Position numbers and translations under genes: made by a program. Below are positions 7,871 through 63,301 of a DNA stretch of 64,000 nucleotides, piece after piece. Position 1 is the stretch's first letter. Every line of letters begins with the position of its first letter. The stretch lies in contig JAPLXZ010000010.1 of the NCBI GenBank assembly GCA_026395815.1, positions 6,659 through 70,658 on the forward strand, read 5' to 3'. Source of the stretch: Candidatus Pacearchaeota archaeon (GTDB lineage Archaea > Nanobdellota > Nanobdellia > Pacearchaeales > GW2011-AR1). A model generated the notes under the pieces. That model saw only the letters and a program-made list of their open reading frames with translations. It ran no database searches and had not been told where the DNA came from.

Positions 7871-9409
7871 ATGAAAGATTCTTCAGAATTGGAAATTAAT
7901 ACAAGCTTAACAAGAATAGCAAAATCTTCTATGATTGTTTTTATTGGAATTTTTTTGTCAAAGTTAGTAACGTATATTTATCGAATAGTGATTGCTAGAT
8001 ATTTTGGGCCAGAAGTTTATGGGATATTTTCTCTTGCATTTATTGTTCTTGGTTTTTTTACTGCTTTTTCTACAGTGGGGTTAATAGACGGTCTTGGACG
8101 ATTCCTTTCTTTTTATAGAGGAAAAAAACAGTCAGATAAAATAAAATATCTTTTTAGAAAAATAACAATAATCCTAATGATTTCCTGTTCTATATCCGGA
8201 ATACTCCTATTCTTGTTTTCTAGATTTATTTCAGTAACAATCTTTCATAATGAAACAATGATTATCTTTTTGAAAGCATTTAGTATCCTTATTCCATTGA
8301 CTATCTTAACACACATATTTCTTACGAGTATAAGAGCATTTGAAAAAGTTGGATGGTACTCTTTTATTTGGAATATATTGCAAAATGTAGTGAAACTGTC
8401 TGTACTGGGGGTATTAATCTTTTTTGGAATGAAAGAAAATGCCATTATCTTTTCTTATATTCTTGGAGTTTTATCCATGCTTATGGTTTCTTATCTTGTT
8501 TGTAAATATAGTGTTAAAGAAGTATTTGGACTTTCTAATTTAAAAAAAGAAACTAAAATTGAAATAACTCGAGAAGTGTTCTCTTATTCATGGCCATTTA
8601 TGTTTTCCGGTATCATAACCACTATCTTCTATTGGACAGATTCTTCATTAATAGGTTATTTTATGAATCCTACAGAAGTTGGGCTCTATAATGCAGCATA
8701 CCCTTTAATGAGCTTGATAACTCTTATTCCTGTTATGTTTTCTCAATTATTCTTCCCCCTAATAACAAAATATTTCTCTCAAAAAAAACATTCTTTAATA
8801 AAAGAAGTGAGTAAACAAGTAGGAAAGTGGATATTCATTTTTGGATTGCCCATTTTTATAATTCTAATCTTGTTTCCAGGAGCGATTATAAATCTCTTCT
8901 TTGGAAGAGAGTACATTGCAGTGCAGAATGTTTTAAGAATTCTTGCTATAGGAGGAATGTTCTCAGCTTTTACATTTCTTCTTACAGATTTAATGTCAAT
9001 GGCAGGCAAGTCCAAACTGATTTTTTTTAACATTTTAGTTACTTCCATAATAAATGTTATTCTGGATATCATTTTGATAAAGAGATATGGGATTGAGGGA
9101 GCTGCAATTGCAACAACAAGCGTATTGATTATCTGGACTTTGGCACTTTTTATAGAAGTGAAACATTATGTTCATTTTGTTCCATTAAGAAAAAAGATGA
9201 TGCGAATTTTCTTTGTATCCTTAATACCAACAGCAGTTTTATTAATCATAAAACAACTAGTCCCTATTAATACACTAAGCTTAATCCTGTTAGGAATATT
9301 TTTTGTATTGTTCTATTTTTTACTTGTTTTTTTAACAAGCCTAGACAAAAATGATTTTTTTGTATTAAAAATGATAAAAGGAAAATTTTCATCTTCTTCT
9401 GGAGTTTAA
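7871..9409 (+). CDS. polysaccharide/oligosaccharide flippase (Wzx, MOP superfamily)
   Basis: The 512 aa product has about 12-14 hydrophobic helices throughout, with the N-terminal pattern SMIVFIGIFLSKLVTYIYRIVIARYFGPEVYG typical of Wzx/polysaccharide biosynthesis proteins. Confidence 0.75.
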   Translation: MKDSSELEINTSLTRIAKSSMIVFIGIFLSKLVTYIYRIVIARYFGPEVYGIFSLAFIVLGFFTAFSTVGLIDGLGRFLSFYRGKKQSDKIKYLFRKITIILMISCSISGILLFLFSRFISVTIFHNETMIIFLKAFSILIPLTILTHIFLTSIRAFEKVGWYSFIWNILQNVVKLSVLGVLIFFGMKENAIIFSYILGVLSMLMVSYLVCKYSVKEVFGLSNLKKETKIEITREVFSYSWPFMFSGIITTIFYWTDSSLIGYFMNPTEVGLYNAAYPLMSLITLIPVMFSQLFFPLITKYFSQKKHSLIKEVSKQVGKWIFIFGLPIFIILILFPGAIINLFFGREYIAVQNVLRILAIGGMFSAFTFLLTDLMSMAGKSKLIFFNILVTSIINVILDIILIKRYGIEGAAIATTSVLIIWTLALFIEVKHYVHFVPLRKKMMRIFFVSLIPTAVLLIIKQLVPINTLSLILLGIFFVLFYFLLVFLTSLDKNDFFVLKMIKGKFSSSSGV

Positions 9410-10801
9410 TCCATCAATAAGATTATTGCATCTTTCCCTAAACTCACGCAGGTCTTTCAATTCCAATTGGTACGGCTTAATAAAATAAGTATGGTAATTT
9501 GTTTGGTACATCTCATCAGAGAGATATAACTCTTCTGGTTTTAGATTAACAAGTAGATTATCTTTTAATGCTTGTTCAAAAACCCTAGATCCAGGAAAAG
9601 GAACAATATTTGTGAGGTGAACTCTGTCAACGTCAATCTCTTGTATCATCTTATAAGTATCCTCGAGGGTTTCACGAGTTTCTTCAGGCATTCCCATGAT
9701 AAAAAACGCTCTGGTGTATACCTGTTCATATTTTTTAAGGCATTTAACGGTTTCAAAGATTTTCTCTCTGCTTAATCTTTTTCCCATTATTTCATTTCTA
9801 ATATAATCAGAACCACTTTCTATTGGTAAAGCAATTCTGGTTAGTCCTGCAGAAACCATAGATTCTAGAATCTCTTTGTCTAATGTTCTTATTGAAACTC
9901 CGTTATGCGTTTCAAATTGAATATTTAATCCTCTTCTTTTGATTTCATTGCATATTTCAATTATTCTTCTTTTGCTTATTGTAAGATTATCATCCATAAA
10001 TCCAAAATGGCTTTGATGATACCTATCATAAACAAATTCTATCTCGTCTATAACATTTTTAGGAGACCTTGGTCTCCACCCCTTTCCCATAATTTCTCCT
10101 TCTGAACAAAAATTGCAATCATAAGGACAACTTCTGCTTGAGATTATTGGAATTTCCATGTCCATTTTAAGTTTTTTTGGATTATGCCATTTGGAAGTAT
10201 CTTCAAAATAAGCCTTTAAGTTTATTAGGTCATATGCTGGAAAAGGAAGAGAATCTAAGTCTCTAATGAACCGTGTTTTAGGATTTATTACAACTCTTCC
10301 ATCTTGTCTAAAAGCAAAACCATCTATATCCTCGAAATTATAATCTTTTCTTTCTATTTTTTCAATTAATTGCATTAAGGTGTCTTCCCCCTCTCCTAAA
10401 ACAAGCCAGTCAATAGAAGGACAATTAGTTAAAATTTCATTAGGATACATAGAAGCATGTGCACCACCCATTACAACAGGAATTTCTGGAAAACTATTTT
10501 TAGTAACTTTTGAAAATTTTAAAACATCTAAAAAATTTCCGGAAATCAATCCACCAAAACCAATCAAATCTGGTTTGAATTTAGAAATGGCATCTTTGAT
10601 TATGTAATCATAATCCTCGTTTTCAGGATCTCCTCTAGTTTCATATAAAAATTCTTTCTGAAATGTTTTTAGATCTATTAATCTTACTTCTTCATTATTT
10701 CTCTGAAGAACTGCTCCAAGATACATCTCACCAGAAGGCAGATAGAACTCTCGATTATAGAATGTACGCGGCACAGGGGGGTTGATTAATAGTGTTCTCA
10801 T
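9389..10801 (-). CDS. cobalamin-binding-domain radical SAM enzyme (class B type)
   Basis: rSAM cluster SRSCPYDCNFCSE. N-terminal B12-domain-type motifs VVMGGAHASMYP and VLGEGEDTL. Paralog of 49719..51134. Confidence 0.85.
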   Translation of the reverse strand: MRTLLINPPVPRTFYNREFYLPSGEMYLGAVLQRNNEEVRLIDLKTFQKEFLYETRGDPENEDYDYIIKDAISKFKPDLIGFGGLISGNFLDVLKFSKVTKNSFPEIPVVMGGAHASMYPNEILTNCPSIDWLVLGEGEDTLMQLIEKIERKDYNFEDIDGFAFRQDGRVVINPKTRFIRDLDSLPFPAYDLINLKAYFEDTSKWHNPKKLKMDMEIPIISSRSCPYDCNFCSEGEIMGKGWRPRSPKNVIDEIEFVYDRYHQSHFGFMDDNLTISKRRIIEICNEIKRRGLNIQFETHNGVSIRTLDKEILESMVSAGLTRIALPIESGSDYIRNEIMGKRLSREKIFETVKCLKKYEQVYTRAFFIMGMPEETRETLEDTYKMIQEIDVDRVHLTNIVPFPGSRVFEQALKDNLLVNLKPEELYLSDEMYQTNYHTYFIKPYQLELKDLREFRERCNNLIDGLNSRRR

Positions 10802-10804
10802 TTT

Positions 10805-12130
10805 CTATATATGACTTAATCCTCTCTCTCTTAATTTGGTCTGTATTTCAATATAATTATTGACCAATTCTCTTTGTGTGAATCCCTTTCCCCAAGGAGT
10901 TTCATTTTCATATTCAAAAGTCAAGGTTGGGATTTCATTGTCATACCTTCCAAAAAGATGCATGGTCTTGTCCCAATCAGTATTAACATTCTTAATTCCG
11001 AACTTTTTTGGATTACTATAAACTTCTGTTCCTGGCCTTACTGTGAATAATGAGAGATAAACCAAATCTGGCTGTGTTTCTTCTATAAAATCCCAGGTTT
11101 GTTTTACTATGTCCCTTGGTTCTCCAGGCAAACCAAGAATCATATAAGCTCTTGTTTCAATTCCATTTTCTTTTAAAATCTTAAGAGTTCTTCTTGCATC
11201 TTCAACTTGAATTTTTTTGTTTATCATGTCCAATGCTGTTTGAGAAACACTCTCTATTCCTAAACCAAGAGCAATACATCCTGCATCTTTTGCCATCTTT
11301 GCTATTTCAGGAGTGATTCCATCAACTCTTGTCTGCGCTCTCCATACAATTCCTGTGCTTGCTATTGCCTCAAGATAAGAGATGGCCTTTTCTTTGCTAA
11401 AAGGAATGCCAATTTCGTCAAGCATGTTTATTCCTTGAATGTCGTACTCTTTTTTTAAGTATTCAATTTCGTCCTTTATCTTTCCTGGAGAATTATACCT
11501 TGTTCCTTTATCAAACTGTTTCAAATTAGGCATAGCACAAAAAGCGCAATTAAATGGACAGCCTCGGCTAAAAAGGGTTGTTGTTCCCAACAATTCTTCA
11601 TATCCTTTTTTTGATTTTAAAGTCATTAATCCTTTTTTTGCAGTTGCAGATTTAGGAAGGTATTTTCTTCTTGAAAAAGGATATAGACTAATGTCTATTT
11701 TTGATTTCTGCTCATAGACCTTTTTCAAATCAGAATTTTGTAAATCATTTAAAACATCTATAATCGACTCTTCTCCCTCTCCTATAATTAATGAATCAAA
11801 TATCTTTGCAGATTCTTCAGGAAATTCAACGACATGGGGTCCTCCTGCTATATGTTTTGCTTTCGGATAATATTCTCGCAATCCTTTAACTAAAGATTTT
11901 TGTTCATTGTAATCTAGAGTGTAGACAGAATGCAGATATAAATCGCATTCTGGGATATGCTGTATTGCAAATTCTCTTTTTATCCCTCTTAAATCAATCA
12001 GCAAGGGATTTATCTTGTTTCCAAAGTGTTCTTCTAGTTCAGTTAGAATATAAAGTTGTGTATGGGGATCCCCCCTAAAAGGATCTTTAAGATAATCGCT
12101 GCTTGGATTAATGAAGCCAATGTTTAACAT
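10805..12130 (-). CDS. cobalamin-binding-domain radical SAM enzyme (class B type)
   Basis: rSAM cluster SRGCPFNCAFCAMP. N-terminal motifs HIAGGPHVVEFP and IIGEGEESI. Confidence 0.85.
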   Translation of the reverse strand: MLNIGFINPSSDYLKDPFRGDPHTQLYILTELEEHFGNKINPLLIDLRGIKREFAIQHIPECDLYLHSVYTLDYNEQKSLVKGLREYYPKAKHIAGGPHVVEFPEESAKIFDSLIIGEGEESIIDVLNDLQNSDLKKVYEQKSKIDISLYPFSRRKYLPKSATAKKGLMTLKSKKGYEELLGTTTLFSRGCPFNCAFCAMPNLKQFDKGTRYNSPGKIKDEIEYLKKEYDIQGINMLDEIGIPFSKEKAISYLEAIASTGIVWRAQTRVDGITPEIAKMAKDAGCIALGLGIESVSQTALDMINKKIQVEDARRTLKILKENGIETRAYMILGLPGEPRDIVKQTWDFIEETQPDLVYLSLFTVRPGTEVYSNPKKFGIKNVNTDWDKTMHLFGRYDNEIPTLTFEYENETPWGKGFTQRELVNNYIEIQTKLRERGLSHI

Positions 12131-17070: not shown

Positions 17071-17973
17071 TTACTTTTTCTTTAGCAAATTTTTTGTCTT
17101 CTCAACAATTTTCTCAACTTTTGGAGTTCCATTTTCATACCTCTCGTAAGTTCCAGTTGGTCTATCTTCTGCTCCCAATGCTTCAACTCTATAACCTGTT
17201 TGTTTCATTAATTCGTATGCAATTGACTGAGAAGCTCCTGCAATTTCAAAATCAGAATCAATCACTAATCCTAACTTAGATTCCTTTAATGGTTTAATCA
17301 TTCTATCTAGGCTAAGTGGTTTTAGCCATAAGATATGAGAAAGATTACATTTTATATTCTTTTTTTCTAATTCTTTTGCCGCTTCTATCATATTAAATCT
17401 CGAAGCAGAAATTCCATAAAGAGTAATGTCTGCATTAGGAAGAATTATGTCCTCTAACTCTTTTGTTTGGTTAAAACTGTGTCTATGTTCGCTTACATAC
17501 ATAGGACAATCATCTTTCATGAACTCATCCCAAATCTCTTGATATTCTCCAGGAGTCATAGGAGAACATACTTTAATTCCGGGAACATGCATGAAATAAC
17601 TATGTGATATTGCTGAATGAGTTGGACCGGCTCCCTTTCCTTCTGTAGACAAAGCCCTTATGAATATTGGAGTTCCATACCCAAATAAGTATTTTGTTTT
17701 AGCAGCATAATCTACAATAAAACTGGAGTTTAGATTAATAAAGTCCTGAAATCTGATTACAAATATTGGTCTTCTTCCAACTAATGCTGCTCCAGCAACA
17801 ATTCCAGAACCAGCAACATCTATCATAGGTAATTCTATTATATTCTCGCAATCTGGAACAGTGTGGTTTACCCAGCCAACAGCAGTTAAACACTGCCCCA
17901 TTATAAGTCCATTGTTTTCTTCTAAATGTTTTTTTGTTATTTCTTTTATTGTTTCTGCAAGTGTTCTTTCCAT
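17071..17973 (-). CDS. TPP-dependent enzyme, E1 beta/transketolase-like subunit (pyrimidine-binding plus C-terminal domain)
   Basis: ELPMIDVAGSGIVAGAALVGRRPIFVIRFQDFINLNSSFIVDYAAK matches the Pyr-binding domain pattern of E1 beta subunits. The 300 aa length includes a C-terminal transketolase-type domain. Confidence 0.8.
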   Translation of the reverse strand: MERTLAETIKEITKKHLEENNGLIMGQCLTAVGWVNHTVPDCENIIELPMIDVAGSGIVAGAALVGRRPIFVIRFQDFINLNSSFIVDYAAKTKYLFGYGTPIFIRALSTEGKGAGPTHSAISHSYFMHVPGIKVCSPMTPGEYQEIWDEFMKDDCPMYVSEHRHSFNQTKELEDIILPNADITLYGISASRFNMIEAAKELEKKNIKCNLSHILWLKPLSLDRMIKPLKESKLGLVIDSDFEIAGASQSIAYELMKQTGYRVEALGAEDRPTGTYERYENGTPKVEKIVEKTKNLLKKK

Positions 17974-18800
17974 AATTTTTCAACCTCCACCCCATTTAGT
18001 TGTTCTGTCCTGTAAATTTTGTGTTCAAGCCCGTTTTTAATTAATTCCTCTCTAAAGATTTCTAATCTGTCTTTTTCTGGTTTACCATCTTCTCCTGTTC
18101 CTGTATGCCATCTATGTCTGCAAGTTCTGCAATTAAGGAATGCAGGCAGATTATTTCTAAATTCCTTTACATATTCTGCTATCACAAAAGGATCATCAGG
18201 AATATTTGCAGAAGGCATGCCAATAGCTTTTGTTGCATCTGTAAGTTCCCAACTTCTTCTTTCAGATTTTTTTGTTAATATTGAAAGATTATTGTCTTCA
18301 CACACAAAAAAGACAGGAAGCTTGTGAGTAACAGCAAAGCCCATAGCTGTAAAAACATAATCCTCTTCAGCAGCACCATCTCCAAAAACACAAAGAACCT
18401 TCTTAGAAGGATCTCCTAAAGCAGCCCCAACAGCTATAGGAACATTTTCTCCTATAAGCCCATGATGCCCAATCATCCCAATGCCTAAATCTTGTATTCC
18501 TGGAGAGCCTCCTCTTCCCCTGTTACATCCAGAATCTTTTCCTAATAACTCATCAATTAATTTTCCTATGTCTCCCCCATAAGCCAAATAAACTGAATGT
18601 CCTCTGTGTTGTGTGAATATTAAATCTGGCTTGTAGAAAACAGAAAGAGTTGATGATATTGCTTCTTGTCCAATTGAAAGATAAACCGGACATTTTATTT
18701 CTCCTTTATCAACAGCACTCATCACTTGGTTTTCAAACTTTCTGGTATAATCCATCTTTCTGTAAATATCCAAGAATTTTTTTTCATCTATTAAAACCAT
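17946..18800 (-). CDS. TPP-dependent enzyme, E1 alpha-like subunit
   Basis: TPP-binding motif VFGDGAAEEDYVFTAMGFAVTHKLPVFFVCEDNNLSI (GDG...EDNN, E1 type), with upstream SIGQEAISS...HRGH. It overlaps the beta-like gene by 28 nt. Confidence 0.8.
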   Translation of the reverse strand: MVLIDEKKFLDIYRKMDYTRKFENQVMSAVDKGEIKCPVYLSIGQEAISSTLSVFYKPDLIFTQHRGHSVYLAYGGDIGKLIDELLGKDSGCNRGRGGSPGIQDLGIGMIGHHGLIGENVPIAVGAALGDPSKKVLCVFGDGAAEEDYVFTAMGFAVTHKLPVFFVCEDNNLSILTKKSERRSWELTDATKAIGMPSANIPDDPFVIAEYVKEFRNNLPAFLNCRTCRHRWHTGTGEDGKPEKDRLEIFREELIKNGLEHKIYRTEQLNGVEVEKLWKEHLQKQ

Positions 18801-20018: not shown

Positions 20019-20178
20019 TTTGTATAACCTTCAAGACAGAAAATGATATTTAAATTTTTTGTAGGTGGAATATATACTATAATTAATTTAATAGAAATTG
20101 GAAGCACTAAATAAATATTCTGCAATCTGTATATTAAGACTACACAAAACTTATATACTATTTTGAAGAAAAAATTTG

Positions 20179-21156
20179 ATGGTTAAGAGTTTAATAACTG
20201 GTATTGGTGGATTTGTAGCGAGTCATTTAGCAGATTTACTTCTTGACAGAAAAGAGGAAGTACATGGAACATACAGATGGGCAGAAGATTTGAATAAAAT
20301 AGATCATGTAAGAGAAAAAATAAACCTTGTTCCATGTGATTTATTGGATGTTAGTGCATGTGTAAGGGCAATTAGAGACTCTAAGCCGGATTATATTTTT
20401 CATTTAGCAGCTCAAAGTTATGTTAGCGACAGTTATGATAATCCAATAATAACAGTCCAGGCAAATACAATTGGAACAGTAGATTTGCTTGAAGCGATTA
20501 GAATTGTAAAACAAGAGGATTCAACTTACAATCCTGTAGTTCATGTATGCAGCACTTCAGAAGTTTATGGGCTTGTGAAAAAAGAAGACTTGCCGATTAA
20601 AGAAACTCAGGCACTTAATCCAGGAAATCCTTATGCTGTAGGAAAACTTGGAGGAGATATGGCTTCATTAGTCTATTGGACTAATTTTGGAATAAAAACA
20701 ATAAGAACAAGAGCATTCACTCATACAGGACCAAGAAGAACAATGATGTCTGCAGAATGTAATTTTGCAAAACAAATCGCTTTGATTGAAAAAGGAAAAC
20801 AAAAACCTATAATCCATCACGGAAACCTCGATAGTGTGAGAACCTGGACAGATGTTAGAGATATGGCTGAGGCATATTATCTTCTTGTGAGAAAATGCAA
20901 ACCAGGAGAAGTATATAATATCGGTGGGGATACTACAAAAACTATTGGTGAAATGTTGGATTATCTTATCTCATTGAGTCCCATGAAAGAAACGATAAAA
21001 AAATTCCAGGATCCAAAACTAATGCGGCCCTATGATGTTTCTTTGCAAATTCCAGACTGTTCAAAATTCAAAAAAGAAACAGGCTGGGAACCAAAAATCA
21101 CATTTGAAAAAACAATGCAGGATTTATTGAACTGGTGGAGACAAACAGCAGATTAG
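20179..21156 (+). CDS. NDP-sugar dehydratase/reductase (extended SDR, Gmd/Rmd-like)
   Basis: ITGIGGFVASHLADLLL Rossmann motif and the catalytic PYAVGKLGG (YxxxK). The track ORF starts at TTG 20176, and the ATG at 20179 is the likelier start. Confidence 0.8.
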   Translation: MVKSLITGIGGFVASHLADLLLDRKEEVHGTYRWAEDLNKIDHVREKINLVPCDLLDVSACVRAIRDSKPDYIFHLAAQSYVSDSYDNPIITVQANTIGTVDLLEAIRIVKQEDSTYNPVVHVCSTSEVYGLVKKEDLPIKETQALNPGNPYAVGKLGGDMASLVYWTNFGIKTIRTRAFTHTGPRRTMMSAECNFAKQIALIEKGKQKPIIHHGNLDSVRTWTDVRDMAEAYYLLVRKCKPGEVYNIGGDTTKTIGEMLDYLISLSPMKETIKKFQDPKLMRPYDVSLQIPDCSKFKKETGWEPKITFEKTMQDLLNWWRQTAD

Positions 21157-21210
21157 ATATTTTACAATTTTATAATTTACATAAATTTTTTTGTGAGAAT
21201 AATCCACAGA

Positions 21211-21921
21211 ATGTTTAAGCTTTTTATTAATACAGGAGGGTTAGGAAAAAGACTTTATTCTTTAACAAAGGATATTCCAAAGCCAATGATAATAGTAAAA
21301 GGAAAGCCCATGCTTCATCATCTTGTTGATTGGGCCAAGAAGTATGATGTTTCAGAGATAGTTATGATGAATGGGTATAAAGCAGAAAAGATTATTGAAT
21401 ACTTTAGGAATGGAGAAAATTTTGGAATAGCAATAAAACATTCAAACGAACCATATCCATTAGGAAGCGGAGGTCCATTAAGATATGCGAGAAATAATAT
21501 TACAGGGACCTTTGCCTATATGTCTGGAGATTTAATTTGTGAAGTCGATTTAAAAGAGATGTATAATATTCATACAAAAAATAATGCAGATATGACTGTC
21601 ACTTTGCATAAATCTTCTCATCCCGAGGATTCAGATATTCTTCAGGTTGATGAAAATAATCAAATAATAAGATTTGTTTCAAAACACGAGAATCATGATA
21701 ATGTCGGAGATTTGGGAAATGCTGGCTTATGCATAATGGAACCGAAAATTATAAAGTTGATGGAAGAAGAGGTTTTCAATTTTGAAAATTACCTATACCC
21801 AAGAGTACTAAATGCAAAACTAAAAATGATGGGATATATTACTGAAGAGCGAATCAAAGATATTGGGACATCAGAAAGATTAAGAGAAATTGAAGAATCT
21901 GATTTTGGAGTTGTGAAATGA
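21211..21921 (+). CDS. sugar-1-phosphate nucleotidylyltransferase (HddC/mannose-1-P guanylyltransferase-like)
   Basis: MFKLFINTGGLGKRLYSLTKDIPKPMIIV (GxGxRL signature), plus GSGGPL and SGDLICEVD. The track ORF begins at GTG 21193. The ATG 21211 places the Gly loop at the usual distance from the N-terminus. Confidence 0.8.
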   Translation: MFKLFINTGGLGKRLYSLTKDIPKPMIIVKGKPMLHHLVDWAKKYDVSEIVMMNGYKAEKIIEYFRNGENFGIAIKHSNEPYPLGSGGPLRYARNNITGTFAYMSGDLICEVDLKEMYNIHTKNNADMTVTLHKSSHPEDSDILQVDENNQIIRFVSKHENHDNVGDLGNAGLCIMEPKIIKLMEEEVFNFENYLYPRVLNAKLKMMGYITEERIKDIGTSERLREIEESDFGVVK

Positions 21922-36703: not shown

Positions 36704-36726
36704 TCATAGATTTTTATCATTATATT

Positions 36727-36734
36727 TATAAATA
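36727..36734 (+). promoter_or_regulatory. TATA-like box for the second tandem rSAM gene
   Basis: tataaata begins 27 nt upstream of the ATG 36754, the same spacing as for copy 1. Confidence 0.45.
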
Positions 36735-36753
36735 TTTATCTATCCTCATTTTT

Positions 36754-51159: not shown

Positions 51160-52578
51160 TTAAGGATTTGCAGTTGCTAATGTTTCTTTTCTGATTTGAT
51201 TTAATCTTTCTTCTGTTATGTCAAGCATATGGCAGATCTTTTTGATTTTTTCAGGACTTGAAAAATTTATCCTGTCCCATTCATATGCACGCAAAACCCT
51301 TAGGTCCTGATGTCTAAATTCATCACTTTTAATCCATCCATCTGACCACAAATGCTTGCTAAAATCAAAGCCTTCCCTAAGAAGCCCTTTTTCCTTTGCC
51401 ATTCTGTACAATTCTGTATTCGGAAGAGGAGTAGCAATAAAGAATCTGCAATAGTCAGCATTTAGTTCTTGTGCATATCTGAATGTCTGCCTTATCTCTT
51501 CCCATGTTTCTCCAGGAAAACCTACTATGAAATTAACAGCGAGATCAATACCCCTTTCTTTTATTTTTCCTATTGTCTCTTTAGCTTTACTTAAATCAAC
51601 AGGTTTATGTATAATTTCGTTTAAGACTCTTTGATTTCCGCTTTCAATTGCTATTCCTAAGTATGCACATCCGCTTTCTTTCATTAAGTCAAGCATTTCA
51701 TCATCTAATTTGAAAACTGCCGTAGCAGGGTTATTCCATTTTAAATTGTATTTTCTTTCAATCATAGTTTTAAATAATTCTTTAGCCCTTTCTTTATTTA
51801 CAGTTAAATTGTCGTCGTCAAATGAAAGGGCTTTTATTCCATAATCTTCAATCATCCATTCAATTTCTCTTGAAATATTTTCTAAATTCCTAAATCTTAC
51901 TTTTTTTCCAGATATAGAACCGACCTCACAAAATGAGCAATTGAACGGGCAGCCTCTTGATGTAACAATCCTGGCATAAGGCATGTCTCTTGGTCTGTCT
52001 ACACTTTCCCTTTGAATTTGAGTTGCATATTTCATAAAATCAACTAAATGGTAAGAAGGAAATGGAAGTGAATCTAAATCCTGAATAAAATCTGTTCTTC
52101 CTCTTTCAATTACTTTTCCATTTTCTTTATACCAAACTCCTTTTTCAGGAAAATTTCCTTTTCCGTCCAAAAATTCGCACAATTCTCTAAATGCATATTC
52201 TCCTTCCCCAACAACTTCATAGTCCACATTTGGGTCGCTTATTATTGGATAAGGATTCGACATTGCACCAACTCCTCCCACAACTATTTTGATATCAGGA
52301 AGAGTTTTTTTTGCAATTTTAGCAGCGATTAATCCAGATTCAGCATATTCATTTGTTGTTATTGATATTCCTAAGATATTTGGAGAACTTTCTCTTATTC
52401 TTTCTGAAAACTGTTCTCTTGACAGATTATCTATGTTTGCATCAATTATTTCTACATATTTTTTATCCTGAATCATTGAAGCTAAAATCCCTATGTTGTA
52501 TGGATGAGAAAACCATTTTGTTCTGCTCATTGATTCTGCCCACTCAAAATTAGGATACATCAAACTTACTTTTTTCAT
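51160..52578 (-). CDS. cobalamin-binding-domain radical SAM enzyme (class B type)
   Basis: rSAM cluster SRGCPFNCSFCEV, with IVVGGVGAMSNP and VVGEGEYAF. Confidence 0.85.
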   Translation of the reverse strand: MKKVSLMYPNFEWAESMSRTKWFSHPYNIGILASMIQDKKYVEIIDANIDNLSREQFSERIRESSPNILGISITTNEYAESGLIAAKIAKKTLPDIKIVVGGVGAMSNPYPIISDPNVDYEVVGEGEYAFRELCEFLDGKGNFPEKGVWYKENGKVIERGRTDFIQDLDSLPFPSYHLVDFMKYATQIQRESVDRPRDMPYARIVTSRGCPFNCSFCEVGSISGKKVRFRNLENISREIEWMIEDYGIKALSFDDDNLTVNKERAKELFKTMIERKYNLKWNNPATAVFKLDDEMLDLMKESGCAYLGIAIESGNQRVLNEIIHKPVDLSKAKETIGKIKERGIDLAVNFIVGFPGETWEEIRQTFRYAQELNADYCRFFIATPLPNTELYRMAKEKGLLREGFDFSKHLWSDGWIKSDEFRHQDLRVLRAYEWDRINFSSPEKIKKICHMLDITEERLNQIRKETLATANP

Positions 52579-53825
52579 AATTTTATTTCTCCTCTTTCTT
52601 TATAAGAATTATTGTGTTTTTTTCTCACTTTTTCAATAAAACTTTCTAATCTCGGAAATTGCTTTTCCATAAGAAAATCTTCCCTTGCTTTTATTATTTT
52701 CTTTTCCCATAGAGGATAGTTCAGTTTTTTTAATCGTTCTTTAAGATTTTTTTCTCTGAAAGGCAACTGAAGATTATAGTGTTTCATTAGTCTATTAATC
52801 ATAGTTGATTTTTCTTCGTATATGCAAGGAATCCCTGCTTCTAAGTATGAACTAATTTTGTTTCCAATTGAATAAATGGGGTAGTTTCCTTGTATTTTAA
52901 CTGAACTTAAAAGAAGACCAAAATCATATTTTGAAATTTCTTTTATTATTTCCTGAGGCCCAAGAGGAGGATGCACATGAAAATACTTAGATTGTAATAA
53001 TTCCTTTCCTTGTTCTGTACTTGAATCTACAAAAGAAGTTTTTGTTGCAGTATTCAATGTAGCATATATATGAATATGAATCCCCTGATTTATAATAGAC
53101 TTAAATTGTTCAAACAAATAATTATCTTCTCTTAAACCAATAGAACCAACAGAACCTATGTACACTGTATGAATCTCTTTGTCTTTTTTTGAAAGCTTAT
53201 CTTTATTTATAGGAACTAAAAAGTCCTTAAGGCAGTAAGAATAAAAATTGAGCTTTTCATTCTTCACTTTGAAACCTTTTCCGAATATTTCTTCACTTAG
53301 ATAGTCTAATTGTCCTTCTCCTCCTGTACAGAGAATTCCATCGCTTTTCTCAAAACAAAATTTTTCTGCTTTTAATTCAAATTCAGGGATTTTATGGACT
53401 TCTGTCATTATTTTTTTTGAAGGAGAAGCTTTTGATGATCTAACATCATATGTAAAATAAACAACAGGATATTTCTTAAAAAGAATCTTAGTCCATTTAC
53501 ACGGCCAGCTTGGAGTTGCCCTTGCAAAGATTATATAAGGTCTTAATTTTAATATTTGAATCCATGCTTTAAACATGCTTTTCATTCTTCTCATTACAGA
53601 TGATAAAATGGGCAAAATGTTCTTAGGTTCAATCTTAAAAAAAACAAGATTAAAGGAAATTATTTCATCAAAAGCATCCTTATAGAACCTATCTGAAGAT
53701 TTATCGCTTTCTAGAATTCTTATTGAAACAGTGTAATAGCCTTTTTTTTTAAGCATTCTAGCCATCTTGTAGACCATGATTGTTGGCCAAGGTTCTAAGA
53801 ATACTATTTGCTTTTTTTCTTCCAT
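52575..53825 (-). CDS. uncharacterised GT-B-like glycosyltransferase-family protein
   Basis: 416 aa paralog of 23772..24953, with shared N-terminus KKQIVFLE and C-terminal GNKISSYLEAGIPCIY. It overlaps the downstream rSAM gene by 4 nt. Confidence 0.5.
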   Translation of the reverse strand: MEEKKQIVFLEPWPTIMVYKMARMLKKKGYYTVSIRILESDKSSDRFYKDAFDEIISFNLVFFKIEPKNILPILSSVMRRMKSMFKAWIQILKLRPYIIFARATPSWPCKWTKILFKKYPVVYFTYDVRSSKASPSKKIMTEVHKIPEFELKAEKFCFEKSDGILCTGGEGQLDYLSEEIFGKGFKVKNEKLNFYSYCLKDFLVPINKDKLSKKDKEIHTVYIGSVGSIGLREDNYLFEQFKSIINQGIHIHIYATLNTATKTSFVDSSTEQGKELLQSKYFHVHPPLGPQEIIKEISKYDFGLLLSSVKIQGNYPIYSIGNKISSYLEAGIPCIYEEKSTMINRLMKHYNLQLPFREKNLKERLKKLNYPLWEKKIIKAREDFLMEKQFPRLESFIEKVRKKHNNSYKERGEIKL

Positions 53826-61729: not shown

Positions 61730-61930
61730 TGTGTGGTTACTCCGTAAAATCTTAAAAACAGCCTTTCTCAGTTTTCTTAAATGAAAATAACTTTAAATCC
61801 ACATCAACATTTTCATTAGAGAATGCATAAGGCTGTAGATATAGTTTATGTTAAGATATAAATCGTATGCTATCTGAACTATATTTGATTAATAAACAAT
61901 CTTTAAAAATATCTATTTCATTCAACTTTT

Positions 61931-63301
61931 ATGAAATTTTTATTCATAAGCAAACCTCTTTTTATGGAACCATTGGGAATAATGTATCTTTCTTCTACAA
62001 TAAAAAAAATGGGACATGAGACAGATTTAGCAATTACAACAGAAAATTTAGAAAGAAAAATGGAATCTTTCAATCCAGATTTTGTAGGGTATAGCATAAT
62101 TACAGGAGATCAGGATTTTTATAGCAAGATTAATAAAGATTTAAAATCAAAATTTAATTTTTTTTCAATTGCAGGAGGACCTCATCCTACTTTCTTCCCA
62201 GAATTTTTGGAAGATTCTTCTTTTGACGCAATTTGCATAGGAGAAGGGGAAAAAGCAATACAGCAATTTCTGGATAAACCTTTATCATTAGAAACGCCAA
62301 ATTTCTGGTTTAAAAAAGATAGAGAAATTATTGCCAAAAATCCAGTTCAATCGTTTATAAGTTCTTTAGATGATATTCCTTTTCCTGACAGAGAAATTAT
62401 TTCCAAATGCTTTCAAATTCAGGAAACACCAATAAGCCATTTTATTGCCTCAAGAGGTTGCCCATTTAATTGTTCATATTGCTTTAATGAACCATTTTCA
62501 GAGTTATATAAAGGAAAAGGAAAAAGAGTAAGATTTAGAACAGTCGACAATCTTTTAGAGGAAATAAAATCTGTTGTTGATGTTCATCCAACAAAACTCG
62601 TTTATTTCCAGGATGATACTTTCACCTTGAATAATGCCTGGTTAAATGAATTTACTGAAAAATATCCTCAAGCAACTAAATTACCTTTTCATTGTCATGT
62701 TAGAGCTAATACTTTAAATGAAGAAAAAGTTGAATCTCTTAGAAGAGCCGGATGTTATAGTGTTCATTTTGCTGCAGAAACAGGAAACGACGAATTAAGA
62801 AATCAAATTCTCAACAGGGGGATGAAGAAAGAACAGATTATCTCTGCAGCTGAATCCCTGAGAAAACAGGGAATAAAATATATTATGCAGAATATGATTG
62901 GTATTCCTGGTGGGAATTTAGAAAATGATTTGGAGACATTGGAATTAAATATTGCTTGTAAGCCGGATTATTCATGGGTTTCTATTTTTCAACCTTATCC
63001 CGGAACAAAATTAGGGGAATTATGCAAAGAGAAAGGATATTATACAGGGGATTTTAAGGACCTTGACAATAATTTTTTTGATTCAAGCAGATTAAATTTT
63101 TCTGAAGAATATAAATCCCAACTATCGCATTTACAGAGATTATTTGCAATTTTTGTAGAATATCCGGAGGTGTATCAACTTGGACTTTTATCTCCCATGA
63201 TTAATGCTCCGCAAGATGAAGAAACAAAAAAGATATATCAAAATGCATATAAAGAATTCAGAAAAAAAGGAGATGGGAGGGCTTATGGTTTTGATTTATA
63301 A
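61931..63301 (+). CDS. cobalamin-binding-domain radical SAM enzyme (class B type)
   Basis: rSAM cluster SRGCPFNCSYCFN, with SIAGGPHPTFFP and CIGEGEKAI. Confidence 0.85.
   Translation: MKFLFISKPLFMEPLGIMYLSSTIKKMGHETDLAITTENLERKMESFNPDFVGYSIITGDQDFYSKINKDLKSKFNFFSIAGGPHPTFFPEFLEDSSFDAICIGEGEKAIQQFLDKPLSLETPNFWFKKDREIIAKNPVQSFISSLDDIPFPDREIISKCFQIQETPISHFIASRGCPFNCSYCFNEPFSELYKGKGKRVRFRTVDNLLEEIKSVVDVHPTKLVYFQDDTFTLNNAWLNEFTEKYPQATKLPFHCHVRANTLNEEKVESLRRAGCYSVHFAAETGNDELRNQILNRGMKKEQIISAAESLRKQGIKYIMQNMIGIPGGNLENDLETLELNIACKPDYSWVSIFQPYPGTKLGELCKEKGYYTGDFKDLDNNFFDSSRLNFSEEYKSQLSHLQRLFAIFVEYPEVYQLGLLSPMINAPQDEETKKIYQNAYKEFRKKGDGRAYGFDL

What the first reader, a model, noticed from the sequence alone, without database searches (positions are those of the whole stretch)
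9389..63301. Radical-SAM-saturated sugar-tailoring island: 14 rSAM genes (9 cobalamin-type) woven into an NDP-sugar/glycosyltransferase/flippase locus
Seen directly: 14 ORFs carry a CxxxCxxC cluster motif. Their lower coordinates are 9389, 10805, 18855, 25825, 28546, 30554, 35117, 36754, 40534, 43585, 48625, 49719, 51160 and 61931. Nine of them have an N-terminal Rossmann-type block with GG-x-H/P and GEGE motifs, typical of the cobalamin-binding domain of class B rSAM enzymes. Four have C-terminal Cys clusters (SPASM/twitch-like) and one is a full-length HemN type. They are interleaved with the sugar-pathway genes, often with overlapping start/stop codons. Those genes are 2 GHMP sugar kinases, 2 sugar-1-P nucleotidyltransferases, 7 SDR/epimerase-type genes, 4 sets of TPP enzymes, 3 methyltransferase-fold genes, 2 NUDIX, 1 aminotransferase, at least 7 glycosyltransferase-type genes and a Wzx flippase. 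Established knowledge: characterised sugar pathways use rSAM enzymes singly or in pairs. Examples are DesII, BtrN, AprD4 and the class B C-methyltransferases GenK/GenD1. Inference: I know of no characterised glycan locus with this density. The product is predicted to be a surface glycan built from heavily C-methylated, branched or deoxygenated sugars. Nine cobalamin-type enzymes occur with no cobalamin synthesis or uptake gene in the window. This implies a cofactor dependency that would be notable in a small-genome archaeon.
Basis: partly seen in the sequence, partly recalled or inferred. Interest (0 to 1): 0.85.

Follow-up and report, generated by a model that had tools for sequence, protein, structure and literature searches.

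The report
Radical-SAM-packed surface-sugar gene island
A tiny uncultivated archaeon (Pacearchaeota) devotes over 55 kb to a cell-surface sugar-building gene island holding 14 radical-SAM enzymes and four carbon-branching thiamine enzymes; similar uncharacterised islands occur in many uncultivated archaea and bacteria, pointing to an unknown class of heavily alkylated, branched surface sugars.

Summary
All 14 ORFs carry CxxxCxxC and hit Pfam Radical_SAM above threshold. Nine have a B12-binding domain (eight above threshold; the ninth is a near full-length TokK/CysS homolog). Four have short twitch-like C-terminal Cys clusters, and one is a true HemN-family protein. They sit in tight, often overlapping operons with NDP-sugar genes. 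The sugar reading is supported indirectly. Both "acetolactate synthase-like" proteins match JanthE, a YerE-like enzyme of the class that adds carbon branches to NDP-4-keto sugars. Heptose-activation genes lie just beyond the window. Two sequon-rich, membrane-anchored surface proteins are embedded. The locus is not unique. Related Pacearchaeota and Woesearchaeota contigs have the same density (9 rSAM in 35.6 kb). A roughly 10-gene cassette (TokK-like, HemN, two or three other B12-rSAMs, twitch rSAM, DJ-1, NUDIX, methyltransferase, bicupin–YerE fusion) recurs next to glycosyltransferases in Nitrosomonadaceae, Planctomycetota and Elusimicrobia. No described example was found in the literature searched. 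Cobalamin dependence is plausible, and strong for the TokK-like enzyme, but unproven. Verdict: a real, large member of a widespread uncharacterised class of rSAM-rich glycan operons. It is a new variant of a known kind, and interest is moderately high.

The parts
4913..5902 (-). GT2 glycosyltransferase; left edge of the island (SecDF, tRNAs, 5S rRNA and RpoN lie to the left)
   Evidence: Pfam Glycos_transf_2, 67.7 bits
5992..6705 (+). Sugar-1-phosphate nucleotidyltransferase
   Evidence: Pfam NTP_transferase, 103 bits; only partial NCBIfam hits
6702..7760 (-). GHMP sugar kinase (galactokinase-like)
   Evidence: Pfam GHMP_kinases_N and GalKase_gal_bdg; galactokinase partial hits
7871..9409 (+). 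Wzx/MOP-family flippase with 13 predicted TM segments
   Evidence: Pfam Polysacc_synt, 91 bits; hydropathy; 46-58% identical orthologs next to rSAM genes in L011, L015 and L016
9389..10801 (-). B12-binding-domain radical SAM enzyme (44% identical to 49719)
   Evidence: PF04055 78 bits and PF02310 55 bits; no NCBIfam cut-off reached; paralogy
10805..12130 (-). B12-binding-domain radical SAM enzyme
   Evidence: PF04055 76 bits and PF02310 34 bits
12193..13131 (-). NDP-sugar epimerase/reductase (GDP-fucose-synthase-like)
   Evidence: Pfam Epimerase, 138 bits; NCBIfam Fcl partial, 138 bits
13133..13885 (-). Short-chain dehydrogenase/ketoreductase
   Evidence: Pfam adh_short, 139 bits
13833..14810 (-). 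NDP-sugar epimerase/reductase (GDP-fucose-synthase-like)
   Evidence: Pfam Epimerase, 147 bits
14935..16617 (+). Glyco_trans_1_2 glycosyltransferase; this GT type recurs in the related rSAM operons
   Evidence: Pfam, 92 bits; same family in L093, L094 and L095
16614..17066 (+). NUDIX hydrolase
   Evidence: Pfam NUDIX
17071..18800 (-). Split ThDP E1-type enzyme (beta 17071-17973, alpha 17946-18800)
   Evidence: Pfam Transket_pyr/Transketolase_C and E1_dh; the split alpha-KADH2 class is known to branch keto-sugars (PMC12247030)
18855..20018 (-). Radical SAM enzyme with a twitch/SPASM-like C-terminal Cys cluster (15 Cys)
   Evidence: PF04055, 70 bits; CX9-15GX4C motif; weak PDB matches to MoaA and BlsE
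20176..21156 (+). NDP-sugar 4,6-dehydratase; would make the 4-keto-6-deoxy acceptor
   Evidence: Pfam GDP_Man_Dehyd, 246 bits; partial hits to dTDP-glucose and GDP-mannose 4,6-dehydratases
21193..21921 (+). Sugar-1-P guanylyltransferase-like enzyme (ManC/HddC-like)
   Evidence: NCBIfam man1P_GTase 126 bits and HddC 106 bits, both below cut-off
21918..22937 (+). GHMP kinase, best match heptose-7-P kinase HddA
   Evidence: NCBIfam HddA, 162 bits, below the cut-off of 600
22937..23800 (+). GT2 glycosyltransferase
   Evidence: Pfam
23772..24953 (-). Probable GT-B glycosyltransferase (weak)
   Evidence: Pfam Glycos_transf_1, E-value 0.001; 43% identical ortholog in L012
25050..25874 (+). SAM-dependent methyltransferase
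   Evidence: Pfam Methyltransf_11
25825..27666 (+). B12-binding-domain radical SAM enzyme (613 aa); member of the cassette shared with bacteria
   Evidence: 37-43% full-length orthologs in L058, L085 and L087
27656..28510 (+). RmlD-like NDP-4-keto-sugar reductase, overlapping the upstream rSAM gene by 11 nt
   Evidence: Pfam RmlD_sub_bind, 123 bits
28546..30567 (+). TokK/CysS/KedN5-type cobalamin-dependent iterative C-methylase homolog
   Evidence: PDB TokK 280 bits over residues 17-606 and CysS 182 bits; NCBIfam KedN5 265 bits, below cut-off; 51-53% identical orthologs in L085 and L087
30554..31948 (+). HemN-family radical SAM enzyme inside the sugar operon
   Evidence: TIGR00538 432 bits, above cut-off; E. 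coli HemN 314 bits against NocN 57 bits; orthologs inside rSAM/GT operons in L058, L085, L087, L094 and L095
31981..32520 (+). DJ-1/PfpI protein, conserved partner directly upstream of the bicupin-YerE gene
   Evidence: Pfam, 138 bits; same adjacency in L091 and L093, and present in L058, L094 and L095
32486..35041 (+). Fusion of an N-terminal bicupin (~250 aa) with a YerE-like ThDP carboligase
   Evidence: PDB JanthE 8rph 406 bits against ALS 306 bits; the ALS cut-off is not reached; AF2 bicupin model with pLDDT 91; large conserved fusion family
35117..36703 (+). B12-binding-domain radical SAM enzyme (tandem duplicate, 70% identical to the next gene)
36754..38355 (+). B12-binding-domain radical SAM enzyme (tandem duplicate)
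   Evidence: 46-47% identical orthologs in L011 and L016
38380..39396 (-). FkbM-family methyltransferase
   Evidence: Pfam Methyltransf_21, 73 bits
39369..40537 (-). Split ThDP E1-type enzyme (beta 39369-39893, alpha 39893-40537)
   Evidence: Pfam; 53-75% identical orthologs next to the twitch rSAM in L011, L015 and L016
40534..41589 (-). Twitch/SPASM radical SAM enzyme, translationally coupled to the E1 pair
   Evidence: PF04055 and PF13186; best PDB matches BlsE and BtrN; 4 C-terminal Cys; conserved module
41650..42048 (+). NUDIX hydrolase (cassette member)
   Evidence: Pfam, 54 bits; orthologs in L011, L015 and L058
42052..42708 (-). SAM-dependent methyltransferase (cassette member)
   Evidence: Pfam; 34-65% identical orthologs in L012, L024, L058, L085 and L087
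42696..43577 (-). NDP-sugar epimerase/reductase
   Evidence: Pfam Epimerase, 89 bits
43585..44634 (-). Twitch/SPASM radical SAM enzyme
44635..46428 (-). YerE-like ThDP carboligase (no cupin)
   Evidence: PDB JanthE 345 bits against ALS 284 bits; 63% identical ortholog in L012
46469..47293 (-). Short-chain dehydrogenase
   Evidence: Pfam
47378..48562 (+). Class I/II (AspAT-type) aminotransferase; proposed supplier of 2-oxoacid donors
   Evidence: Pfam Aminotran_1_2, 238 bits; NCBIfam aspartate aminotransferase-like, below cut-off; 71% identical ortholog next to the YerE-like gene in L012
48625..49713 (+). Twitch/SPASM radical SAM enzyme (cassette member)
   Evidence: 37-60% identical orthologs in L012, L013, L024, L044, L046, L058, L085 and L087
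49719..51134 (+). B12-binding-domain radical SAM enzyme
   Evidence: PF02310 76 bits and PF04055 60 bits
51160..52578 (-). B12-binding-domain radical SAM enzyme; widespread orthologous family used as the probe
   Evidence: 3244 relatives at E<=1e-20; 163 genome loci
52575..53825 (-). Probable glycosyltransferase (weak Gtf3_C), coupled to 51160
   Evidence: Precomputed weak Pfam hit; no hit in a direct scan; 40-42% identical orthologs in L011 and L015
53925..55100 (+). GT4 glycosyltransferase, co-directional with the two surface proteins
   Evidence: Pfam Glycos_transf_1, 108 bits; gaps of 70 and 17 nt
55171..58398 (+). Surface protein (LamG domain) with an N-terminal signal/TM and a C-terminal TM anchor; probable glycan acceptor
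   Evidence: Pfam Laminin_G_3; TM segments and 1.95 sequons per 100 aa against a background of 0.56
58416..61583 (+). Surface protein (FG-GAP repeats, Big_7) with a signal and a C-terminal TM anchor; probable glycan acceptor
   Evidence: Pfam; 3.32 sequons per 100 aa and a repeated 'NNGTS' motif
61931..63301 (+). B12-binding-domain radical SAM enzyme; the island continues beyond the window
   Evidence: downstream genes in L009 are GT2, epimerase, PfkB, SIS, CTP_transf_like, PMT_2, MT, Phosphodiest and epimerase

Best explanation
This is a surface-glycan biosynthesis island of a Pacearchaeota (DPANN) archaeon. It spans at least 68 kb, from about 4.9 kb in the window to at least 10 kb beyond the window end.

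Shown:
- The island encodes sugar activation (GHMP kinases and nucleotidyltransferases; SIS, PfkB and cytidylyl/adenylyl-transferase genes lie just downstream).
- It encodes an NDP-sugar 4,6-dehydratase, 4-keto reductases/epimerases, four ThDP carbon-branching enzymes (two YerE-like, two split E1-type), O/N-methyltransferases, NUDIX hydrolases, glycosyltransferases and a Wzx flippase.
- Fourteen radical SAM genes are woven into the same operons.
- Two sequon-rich, membrane-anchored surface proteins are embedded.

Inferred mechanism:
1. A hexose or heptose phosphate is converted to an NDP-sugar.
2. The NDP-sugar is dehydrated to an NDP-4-keto-6-deoxy intermediate.
3. ThDP enzymes add acyl or hydroxyalkyl branches to the keto carbon from 2-oxoacid donors. 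The AspAT-type aminotransferase may supply these donors from amino acids.
4. Radical SAM enzymes then elaborate unactivated carbons. The class-B enzymes would perform C-methylations, and the TokK/CysS-like enzyme possibly repeated methylations that build ethyl, isopropyl or tert-butyl groups. The twitch-type enzymes would perform oxidation, epimerisation, dehydration or decarboxylation of the BtrN, BlsE or DesII type. The HemN-type enzyme would perform an oxidative decarboxylation or a methyl/alkyl transfer.
5. SDRs reduce the remaining carbonyls.
6. The finished sugars are assembled on a lipid carrier, flipped by Wzx and attached to the surface proteins or to a lipid.

The core of this chemistry is a conserved cassette of about 10 genes that is shared with many uncultivated bacteria.
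For: - rSAM, B12, twitch and HemN identities.
- Sugar gene identities.
- YerE-like assignment: both ALS-like proteins match JanthE (406 and 345 bits) better than any true ALS and fail the ALS cut-offs. JanthE is a YerE-like enzyme (PMC12188165). YerE-like, split E1 and TK enzymes are the three ThDP classes known to branch keto-sugars, and YerE-like ones act mainly in LPS and cell-surface sugars (PMC12247030).
- Operonic coupling: for example B12-rSAM, RmlD, TokK-like and HemN with -11, +35 and -14 nt gaps, and twitch rSAM, E1 alpha and E1 beta with -4 and -1 nt gaps.
- Nearest solved relatives are sugar or small-molecule enzymes: BlsE and BtrN for 40534, AprD4 and QCMT for 51160, TokK and CysS for 28546.
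- Heptose markers: best match to HddA; SIS, PfkB and CTP_transf_like downstream; HldE-type fusions and GT9 in relatives.
- Conserved linkage: L003/L011, L012, L013, L015, L016, L091 and L092/L093 in DPANN. The cassette lies beside GTs, flippases and a giant GT2/TPR/nucleotidyltransferase protein in Nitrosomonadaceae, Planctomycetota and Elusimicrobia.
- Neighbourhood statistics: 49 of 60 species-representative loci around the 51160 family hold sugar-type genes, and 46 of 60 hold two or more rSAM genes.
- Surface proteins: signal plus C-terminal anchor, with 3.5-6 times the background sequon density.
Against: - No rSAM here reaches a curated cut-off for any sugar-acting family (GenK, DesII, BtrN, AprD4, BlsE), and similarities to them are distant.
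- No initiating phosphoglycosyltransferase, Wzy polymerase or AglB is present in the window.
- The aminotransferase and HemN belong to families typical of amino-acid and tetrapyrrole metabolism.
- The bicupin fold search was uninformative.
- Some 51160-family members sit in non-glycan contexts, for example Acidobacteriota L007 and L019 and also L039.
- No glycan structure or expression data exist.
- The reaction order and the individual rSAM chemistries are inference only.
Confidence: 0.7

Rival explanations
1. The radical SAM enzymes modify proteins or peptides rather than sugars. The B12-type enzymes would C-methylate, and the SPASM/twitch enzymes would cross-link or epimerise, residues of the adjacent large surface proteins or of an unrecognised RiPP precursor. 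The sugar genes would be a separate glycosylation system that is merely co-located.
For: Class-B rSAM enzymes include protein and RiPP C-methyltransferases. Partial NCBIfam hits to rSAM_ocin_1, ApyD and the MCR Gln methyltransferase are seen, and QCMT is the second-best PDB hit for 51160. SPASM domains are typical of peptide maturases (one search lists many at low scores). Two large surface proteins lie inside the island.
Against: Coding density is 97%, which leaves almost no room for precursor genes. The only small ORF near an rSAM gene (61577-61729) is a Cys-free, charged helical peptide resembling a small DNA-binding protein. The bacterial versions of the cassette lack such surface proteins and sit beside GTs. 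rSAM genes are translationally coupled to RmlD, E1 and epimerase genes. The twitch-like 4-Cys C-termini and the best PDB hits (BlsE, BtrN) resemble small-molecule enzymes. No peptide-family cut-off is reached.
Confidence: 0.1
2. Part of the island, the conserved cassette, makes or modifies a lipid or another non-glycan small molecule. Examples would be alkylation or cyclisation of scavenged isoprenoid lipids in the manner of GrsA/B, Gmm and Gms, or synthesis of a secondary metabolite. The product might then be glycosylated.
For: All published DPANN and rSAM literature concerns lipid enzymes. Grs and Gmm are B12-type, Gms is SPASM-type, and their genes cluster together (PMC11214058, PMC11186832). 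Partial hits to the 'lipid biosynthesis B12-binding/rSAM' family TIGR04072 and to HpnJ and HpnR are seen. The TokK, CysS and KedN5 relatives act on non-sugar antibiotics. A Kuenenia locus is among the relatives.
Against: There are no lipid-pathway, prenyltransferase, PKS or NRPS genes in the window or in the related loci inspected. The giant neighbouring ORF in Planctomycetota is a glycosyltransferase, not a PKS/NRPS. The cassette always carries NUDIX, epimerase/reductase and YerE-like genes typical of NDP-sugar chemistry. The lipid-family cut-offs are missed by a wide margin (131 bits against 360).
Confidence: 0.1
3. The island is a mosaic of several independent glycan pathways gathered in a variable 'glycan hotspot' next to SecDF. 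Examples would be an N-glycan, an O-glycan and a lipoglycan, each with only two to four rSAM steps. The high count would then reflect accretion by gene transfer rather than one pathway to one extraordinarily modified sugar.
For: There are 17 transcription units of alternating direction, two separate kinase/nucleotidyltransferase sets and four ThDP sets. The B12 proteins are mutually only 22-30% identical. Distinct modules recur separately in other genomes: twitch plus E1 alpha/beta; AT plus YerE plus MT; and the TokK, HemN and bicupin-YerE cassette. The SecDF-Wzx position is conserved but the content is shuffled in L011 and L016.
Against: This is compatible with the main explanation and refines it rather than replacing it. 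Only one Wzx is seen in the window. The modules co-occur repeatedly in the same islands.
Confidence: 0.45

Closest known systems
YerE-type branched-chain sugar pathways of LPS O-antigens and lipooligosaccharides (yersiniose, erwiniose, caryophyllose)
   Same: An NDP-sugar activation and 4,6-dehydratase set sits with a ThDP carboligase closest to the YerE-like enzyme JanthE. Reductases, GTs and Wzx lie in one surface-glycan locus (PMC12247030).
   Different: Here there are four ThDP enzymes, one fused to a bicupin, plus 14 radical SAM enzymes, and the host is an archaeon. The literature consulted on these pathways (PMC12247030) mentions no radical SAM enzymes, and a full-text search for caryophyllose plus radical SAM found only one unrelated review.
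Radical SAM sugar tailoring in antibiotic pathways (GenK/GenD1 C-methylation, AprD4 dehydration, BtrN oxidation, DesII deamination, BlsE decarboxylation)
   Same: The enzyme classes are the same: class-B rSAM and twitch-domain rSAM. AprD4, BlsE, BtrN and DesII are among the nearest solved structures.
   Different: Similarities here are remote (39-77 bits), and no curated cut-off is met. The context is cell-surface glycan, not antibiotic.
TokK / ThnK / CysS / KedN5 cobalamin-dependent iterative C-methylases
   Same: ORF 28546 aligns nearly end to end with TokK (280 bits) and CysS (182 bits), and its best NCBIfam hit is the KedN5 family.
   Different: It scores below the KedN5 cut-off (265 bits against 700). 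The genomic context is NDP-sugar rather than carbapenem, cystobactamid or enediyne. The substrate is unknown.
HemN, oxygen-independent coproporphyrinogen III dehydrogenase
   Same: ORF 30554 passes the HemN equivalog model and aligns full length with E. coli HemN.
   Different: It is embedded in sugar/rSAM operons across archaea and bacteria, with no heme genes nearby. It is much less similar to the class C methyltransferase NocN (57 bits).
GDP-/ADP-heptose pathways feeding capsules and S-layer glycans (HddA/HddC, GmhA, HldE; Campylobacter jejuni capsule heptoses)
   Same: The locus holds a GHMP kinase whose best match is HddA, a guanylyltransferase-like enzyme, a 4,6-dehydratase and epimerases/reductases. 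SIS, PfkB and CTP_transf_like genes lie downstream, and GT9 occurs in relatives (PMC10680097).
   Different: All matches are below the curated cut-offs, and no GmhB phosphatase was identified in the window. The C. jejuni literature retrieved (titles and abstracts) does not mention rSAM or ThDP branching enzymes.

Membership tests
Radical SAM superfamily | CxxxCxxC cluster motif within a PF04055 core domain | tested here: met
   All 14 ORFs have one motif each and score 53.7-101.5 bits against a cut-off of 29.5
Class B (cobalamin-dependent) radical SAM enzymes | N-terminal Rossmann-type B12-binding domain (PF02310) preceding the rSAM core | tested here: met
   Nine ORFs hit PF02310. Eight are above the cut-off; 28546 is below it (24.2 bits) but is a full-length TokK/CysS homolog
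Class B (cobalamin-dependent) radical SAM enzymes | Actual binding and use of cobalamin | not testable with these tools
   AprD4- and ArsL-type proteins carry related domains without binding cobalamin (PMC12931638). There is no DxHxxG motif, which I recall is usual for the base-off, His-off class B enzymes
TokK/CysS/KedN5 iterative C-methylase subfamily (for 28546) | Full-length homology and a score above the NCBIfam NF033712 cut-off | tested here: inconclusive
   TokK 280 bits over residues 17-606 and CysS 182 bits, but NF033712 scores 265 bits against a cut-off of 700
SPASM-domain radical SAM enzymes | C-terminal seven-Cys motif including CX2CX5CX3C (two auxiliary clusters) | tested here: not met
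   Pfam SPASM hits three ORFs, but they have only 4-5 C-terminal Cys and no CX2CX5CX3C. They are better described as twitch-like
HemN (TIGR00538) | Score above the curated equivalog cut-off, full-length alignment and a HemN_C domain | tested here: met
   431.8 bits against 324.95; E. coli HemN 314 bits over residues 8-453; HemN_C 30.8 bits
HemN (TIGR00538) | Heme/tetrapyrrole pathway context | tested here: not met
   There are no tetrapyrrole genes in the window. Orthologs sit inside rSAM/GT operons
YerE-like ThDP carboligases | Decarboxylase-superfamily three-domain ThDP enzyme closer to YerE/JanthE than to acetolactate synthase | tested here: met
   JanthE scores 406 and 345 bits against the best ALS at 306 and 284 bits. 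The ALS equivalog cut-off is not reached (435 and 426 bits against 538)
YerE-like ThDP carboligases | Transfer of an acyl anion from a 2-oxoacid to an NDP-keto-sugar | not testable with these tools
   Only context supports it: a 4,6-dehydratase and reductases lie in the same island
Wzx/Wzy-dependent glycan assembly | Wzx flippase, Wzy polymerase and an initiating phosphoglycosyltransferase | tested here: inconclusive
   Wzx is present. No Wzy-like polytopic protein and no PF00953 or PF02397 initiating transferase is found in the window. A PMT_2 GT-C enzyme lies downstream
GDP-D-glycero-D-manno-heptose pathway | GmhA (SIS), HddA kinase, GmhB phosphatase and HddC guanylyltransferase above family cut-offs | tested here: inconclusive
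   HddA scores 162 bits against 600 and HddC 106 bits against 300. An SIS gene lies downstream. No GmhB is present in the window, though HAD genes occur in relatives
RiPP biosynthetic cluster | Precursor peptide gene next to the maturase, and a maturase above a family cut-off | tested here: not met
   Coding density is 97%. The only nearby small ORF is not precursor-like. No peptide-maturase cut-off is reached
Archaeal lipid-modifying rSAM enzymes (Tes, GrsA/B, Gms, Gmm) | Orthology to those enzymes and co-location with each other or with lipid genes | not tested
There are no lipid genes in the window. The best lipid-related NCBIfam hit is far below its cut-off

The most novel reading that the evidence does not exclude
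The conserved cassette (TokK-like iterative methylase, HemN-type enzyme, two or three further B12-type rSAM enzymes, twitch rSAM, DJ-1, NUDIX, methyltransferase and bicupin-YerE fusion) builds a so far undescribed class of surface sugars. These would be higher-carbon, C-branched and repeatedly C-alkylated, possibly bearing isopropyl, tert-butyl or vinyl groups. The chemistry would include a HemN-type oxidative decarboxylation on a sugar-bound carboxyalkyl branch. These sugars would coat the cells of many uncultivated DPANN archaea and bacteria (Elusimicrobia, Planctomycetota, Omnitrophota, Nitrosomonadaceae and others). In the archaeon this would make the cell envelope dependent on cobalamin that it most likely has to obtain from a host or the community.
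Probability: 0.3. Interest if true: 0.85.

Novelty: new variant of a known kind. Interest (0 to 1): 0.62.

Why it matters
If the inference holds, surface glycans of a large part of the uncultivated microbial world carry carbon-branched and radically alkylated sugars that no characterised pathway explains. These groups include DPANN archaea, Elusimicrobia, Planctomycetota and Omnitrophota.

The finding also supplies concrete, testable material:
- A compact conserved cassette that can be expressed heterologously.
- A TokK-like methylase and a true HemN-lineage enzyme apparently recruited to carbohydrate chemistry.
- A conserved bicupin–YerE fusion family with hundreds of members.

For DPANN biology, it shows that a reduced genome invests more than 55 kb and 14 Fe-S and possibly cobalamin-requiring enzymes in its surface. 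This suggests the glycan is central to the episymbiotic lifestyle (attachment, recognition or phage evasion) and would link envelope synthesis to scavenged cofactors.

Tried and rejected
- **Giant neighbouring ORF as PKS/NRPS.** I suspected that the 3,200-aa ORF next to the bacterial cassette might be a PKS/NRPS, which would argue against sugars. Pfam shows GT2, TPR, a nucleotidyltransferase and a methyltransferase domain, so the idea was rejected.
- **Bicupin half of 32486.** I tried to assign it by PDB sequence search (no meaningful hit) and by an AF2 model plus Foldseek (confident bicupin, but only generic matches at TM ~0.4). This was inconclusive. The resemblance of its KPWGYEY/HxH motif to type II phosphomannose isomerase rests on memory and on sub-threshold PF01050 hits only.
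- **Phosphonate decoration.** I considered this because of partial hits to P-methyltransferase families. No PEP mutase is present in the window, so it was rejected.
- **RiPP reading.** No precursor peptide candidates were found.
- **Cobalamin or SAM riboswitches.** None were found.
- **Literature.** Searches for rSAM-rich glycan loci in DPANN, for B12-rSAM with O-antigen, capsule or heptose, and for caryophyllose with rSAM found no description.
- **Recent paralog expansion.** Rejected: most pairs are only 22-30% identical.
- **Assembly artefact.** Rejected: the sequence recurs in independent assemblies.
- **Compositional island.** There is no GC break across the window.

Full report
**Observation**

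The window contains 14 ORFs, at the stated coordinates, with one CxxxCxxC motif each. All 14 match Pfam Radical_SAM well above the gathering score.

- Nine also match the B12-binding domain. Eight are above threshold. The ninth, 28546, is below it but aligns almost end to end with the cobalamin-dependent methylases TokK (280 bits) and CysS (182 bits).
- Three match Pfam SPASM. A fourth, 18855, has a CX9-15GX4C motif plus further C-terminal Cys.
- None of these four has the full seven-Cys SPASM signature. They carry only 4-5 C-terminal Cys, so I describe them as twitch-like.
- ORF 30554 passes the curated HemN equivalog model and aligns full length with E. coli HemN at 314 bits. It scores only 57 bits against the class C methyltransferase NocN.
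- Genes are packed at 97% coding density into about 17 transcription units with many overlapping stops and starts. rSAM genes make up 37% of 9389-63301.
- The source is a 'Candidatus Pacearchaeota archaeon' MAG. The sequence recurs in independent assemblies.

**Extent**

To the left of about 4.9 kb lie housekeeping genes: RpoN, 5S rRNA, two tRNAs and SecDF. To the right, the island runs past the window end. The next 10 kb encode GT2, an epimerase, PfkB, SIS, a CTP_transf_like protein, a PMT_2 GT-C enzyme, a methyltransferase, a phosphodiesterase-family protein and another epimerase, with no further rSAM gene.

**What the non-rSAM genes indicate**

The two 'acetolactate-synthase-like' proteins fail the ALS cut-offs. 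Their best match in the PDB is 8rph (406 and 345 bits, against 306 and 284 for the best ALS). Entry 8rph is JanthE, a YerE-like ThDP enzyme (PMC12188165).

YerE-like enzymes transfer an acyl anion from a 2-oxoacid to NDP-4-keto-deoxy sugars and act mainly in LPS and cell-surface sugars. Split E1-type and transketolase-type ThDP enzymes are the two other classes known to branch keto-sugars (PMC12247030). All four ThDP sets in the window therefore belong to sugar-branching classes.

One operon (20176-23800) encodes a 4,6-dehydratase, a ManC/HddC-like nucleotidyltransferase, a kinase whose best match is HddA, and a GT2. This is a self-contained route to an NDP-4-keto-6-deoxy sugar, the classical YerE acceptor. 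RmlD-like and GDP-fucose-synthase-like reductases are interleaved with rSAM genes. Heptose markers occur downstream and in relatives: SIS, PfkB/CTP-transferase, HldE-type fusions and GT9.

The aminotransferase is AspAT-type, not DegT-type. It is a conserved neighbour of the YerE-like gene in L012 (71% and 63% identity). I therefore propose, as inference, that it supplies 2-oxoacid donors.

**What the rSAM proteins resemble**

None reaches a curated NCBIfam cut-off except HemN. The nearest solved structures are:

- AprD4, QCMT (9ccb), TokK and TsrM for 51160.
- BlsE, BtrN, viperin, MoaA and DesII for 40534.
- TokK and CysS for 28546.

All matches except TokK and CysS for 28546 are remote. They point to small-molecule, sugar or nucleoside substrates, and in one case (QCMT) to a protein.

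The nine B12-type proteins are mostly 22-30% identical to one another. The exceptions are a tandem duplicate (35117 and 36754, 70%) and one 44% pair, so this is an assembly of distinct lineages.

**Comparative genomics**

The 51160 family has thousands of relatives and at least 163 loci in species-representative genomes. I analysed the 60 of these loci that are at least 15 kb long:

- 46 hold two or more rSAM genes, 24 hold four or more, and 7 hold six or more (maximum 8).
- 49 hold sugar-type genes and 26 hold ThDP enzymes.

These counts are conservative, because the labelled-phmmer method finds fewer rSAM genes than Pfam in L003 (6 against 8).

Related DPANN contigs show the same island type. 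L003/L011 lies next to SecDF and Wzx, as here. L091 has 6 rSAM genes in 22.5 kb. A 174-kb JGI contig has 9 rSAM genes in 35.6 kb, or 0.25 per kb against 0.26 per kb in the window.

Three recurring modules emerge:
1. A twitch rSAM with E1 alpha and beta (56-75% identity in L011, L015 and L016).
2. A twitch rSAM with the AspAT, an SDR, the YerE-like enzyme and a methyltransferase (L012).
3. A cassette comprising DJ-1, the TokK-like enzyme, HemN, 25825-type and 51160-type B12 enzymes, the 48625-type twitch rSAM, an SDR, a methyltransferase, NUDIX and the bicupin-YerE fusion.

The third module is co-linear in Nitrosomonadaceae (L058), Planctomycetota (L085) and Sedimentisphaerales (L087) at 37-53% identity.

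In L085 the cassette is followed by a 3,202-aa protein with GT2, TPR, nucleotidyltransferase and methyltransferase domains, not a PKS/NRPS. In Elusimicrobia, the HemN ortholog lies in one-strand operons with 5-6 B12-type rSAM genes, DJ-1, NUDIX, three epimerases, HAD, GTs and a flippase.

HemN, bicupin-YerE and 51160-type proteins repeatedly lie on contigs of identical length in the homolog tables, which suggests they share the same contigs. For the 174,327-bp JGI contig this was confirmed directly.

The density seen here is therefore typical of a widespread but uncharacterised class of operon. The window is a particularly large DPANN example.

**Likely acceptors**

The two large proteins at 55171-61583 have an N-terminal signal/TM and a C-terminal TM anchor. 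They carry 1.95 and 3.32 N-X-S/T sequons per 100 aa, against 0.56 ± 0.42 for the island's enzymes. They are co-directional with a GT4. They are plausible glycan carriers, but this is inference.

**Cobalamin**

No cobalamin synthesis or uptake gene and no riboswitch is present in the window. Dependence is well founded for the TokK/CysS homolog and plausible for the others, because alignments of 51160 to TokK and TsrM extend into the N-terminal domain. It is not proven. AprD4 and ArsL-type enzymes carry related domains without binding cobalamin (PMC12931638). The rest of the genome could not be examined.

**Rivals**

- A peptide or protein target is unlikely. There are no precursor genes and no room for them, and the bacterial cassettes lack such surface proteins.
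- A lipid target is suggested by the only existing DPANN and rSAM literature, on Tes, Grs, Gms and Gmm (PMC11214058, PMC11186832). It is unsupported by context, since no lipid genes are present. I could not test those sequences directly.
- A mosaic of several glycan pathways is quite possible and refines the main explanation rather than replacing it.

**Novelty and score**

I found no paper describing rSAM-rich glycan operons of this kind. The components belong to known kinds: surface-glycan clusters, YerE branching and rSAM sugar tailoring. I therefore rate it a new variant of a known kind.

Interest is moderately high at 0.62. It is neither unique to this window nor supported by any product data.

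Noticed in passing
window 837-951 (-), 994-1124 (-), 1917-1987 (+): A 5S rRNA gene, a 131-nt tRNA match that ARAGORN did not call (probably an intron-containing archaeal tRNA), and a tRNA-Gly(TCC) lie between RpoN and SecF.
   Followed up: partly
window 30554-31948 (+); L058 3669-5087; L085 8287-9984; L094 10001-11362; L095 10001-11374: A protein that passes the true HemN (coproporphyrinogen dehydrogenase) model is a stable member of rSAM/glycosyltransferase operons in an archaeon and in several bacterial phyla. No tetrapyrrole genes lie nearby, and its role there is unexplained.
   Followed up: partly
window 32486-33250 (+) (N-terminal 255 aa of the 851-aa protein): A bicupin with invariant KPWGYEY and SMHCHPxKK...H motifs is fused to the YerE-like ThDP enzyme. 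The ~850-aa fusion is a large conserved family in DPANN, Nitrospirae, Nitrospinaceae and others. The fold search gave only generic bicupin matches.
   Followed up: yes
window 31981-32520 (+); L091 9460-9984; L093 9478-10017; L094 948-1454; L095 315-827: A DJ-1/PfpI protein lies immediately upstream of the bicupin-YerE gene in the window (35-nt overlap), L091 and L093, and occurs elsewhere in the rSAM/glycan operons of L058, L094 and L095. Its function in this context is unknown.
   Followed up: partly
window 61577-61729 (+): A 50-aa, Cys-free, highly charged helical ORF lies between the FG-GAP surface protein and the last B12-rSAM gene. It is also called as a gene in the Logan assembly and may be a small ribbon-helix-helix-type regulator.
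   Followed up: no
window 35117-38355 (+): Two adjacent B12-type rSAM genes are 70% identical, a recent tandem duplication. All other pairs are 44% identical or less.
   Followed up: yes
L085 11465-21073 and L087 10834-21072: Giant 3,200-3,400-aa proteins in Planctomycetota and Sedimentisphaerales combine TPR repeats with methyltransferase, nucleotidyltransferase and GT2 domains. They lie directly downstream of the rSAM cassette.
   Followed up: partly
L012 17835-19379 and L016 12083-13723: In two DPANN relatives the E1 beta-like gene encodes 514-546 aa instead of 174 aa. It is therefore fused to an additional, unidentified domain.
   Followed up: no
L009 9142-12553 (about 9-12 kb beyond the window end): A PMT_2 (GT-C, ArnT/protein-mannosyltransferase-like) enzyme and a phosphodiesterase/sulfatase-family protein follow the island. 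They may transfer the glycan or a phospho-substituent at the outer face of the membrane.
   Followed up: no
L007 and L019 (Acidobacteriota), L039 (Thermoguttaceae): Some 45-52% identical members of the 51160 family occur singly in non-glycan neighbourhoods (DnaG, chemotaxis and two-component genes). The family is therefore not exclusively glycan-linked.
   Followed up: partly
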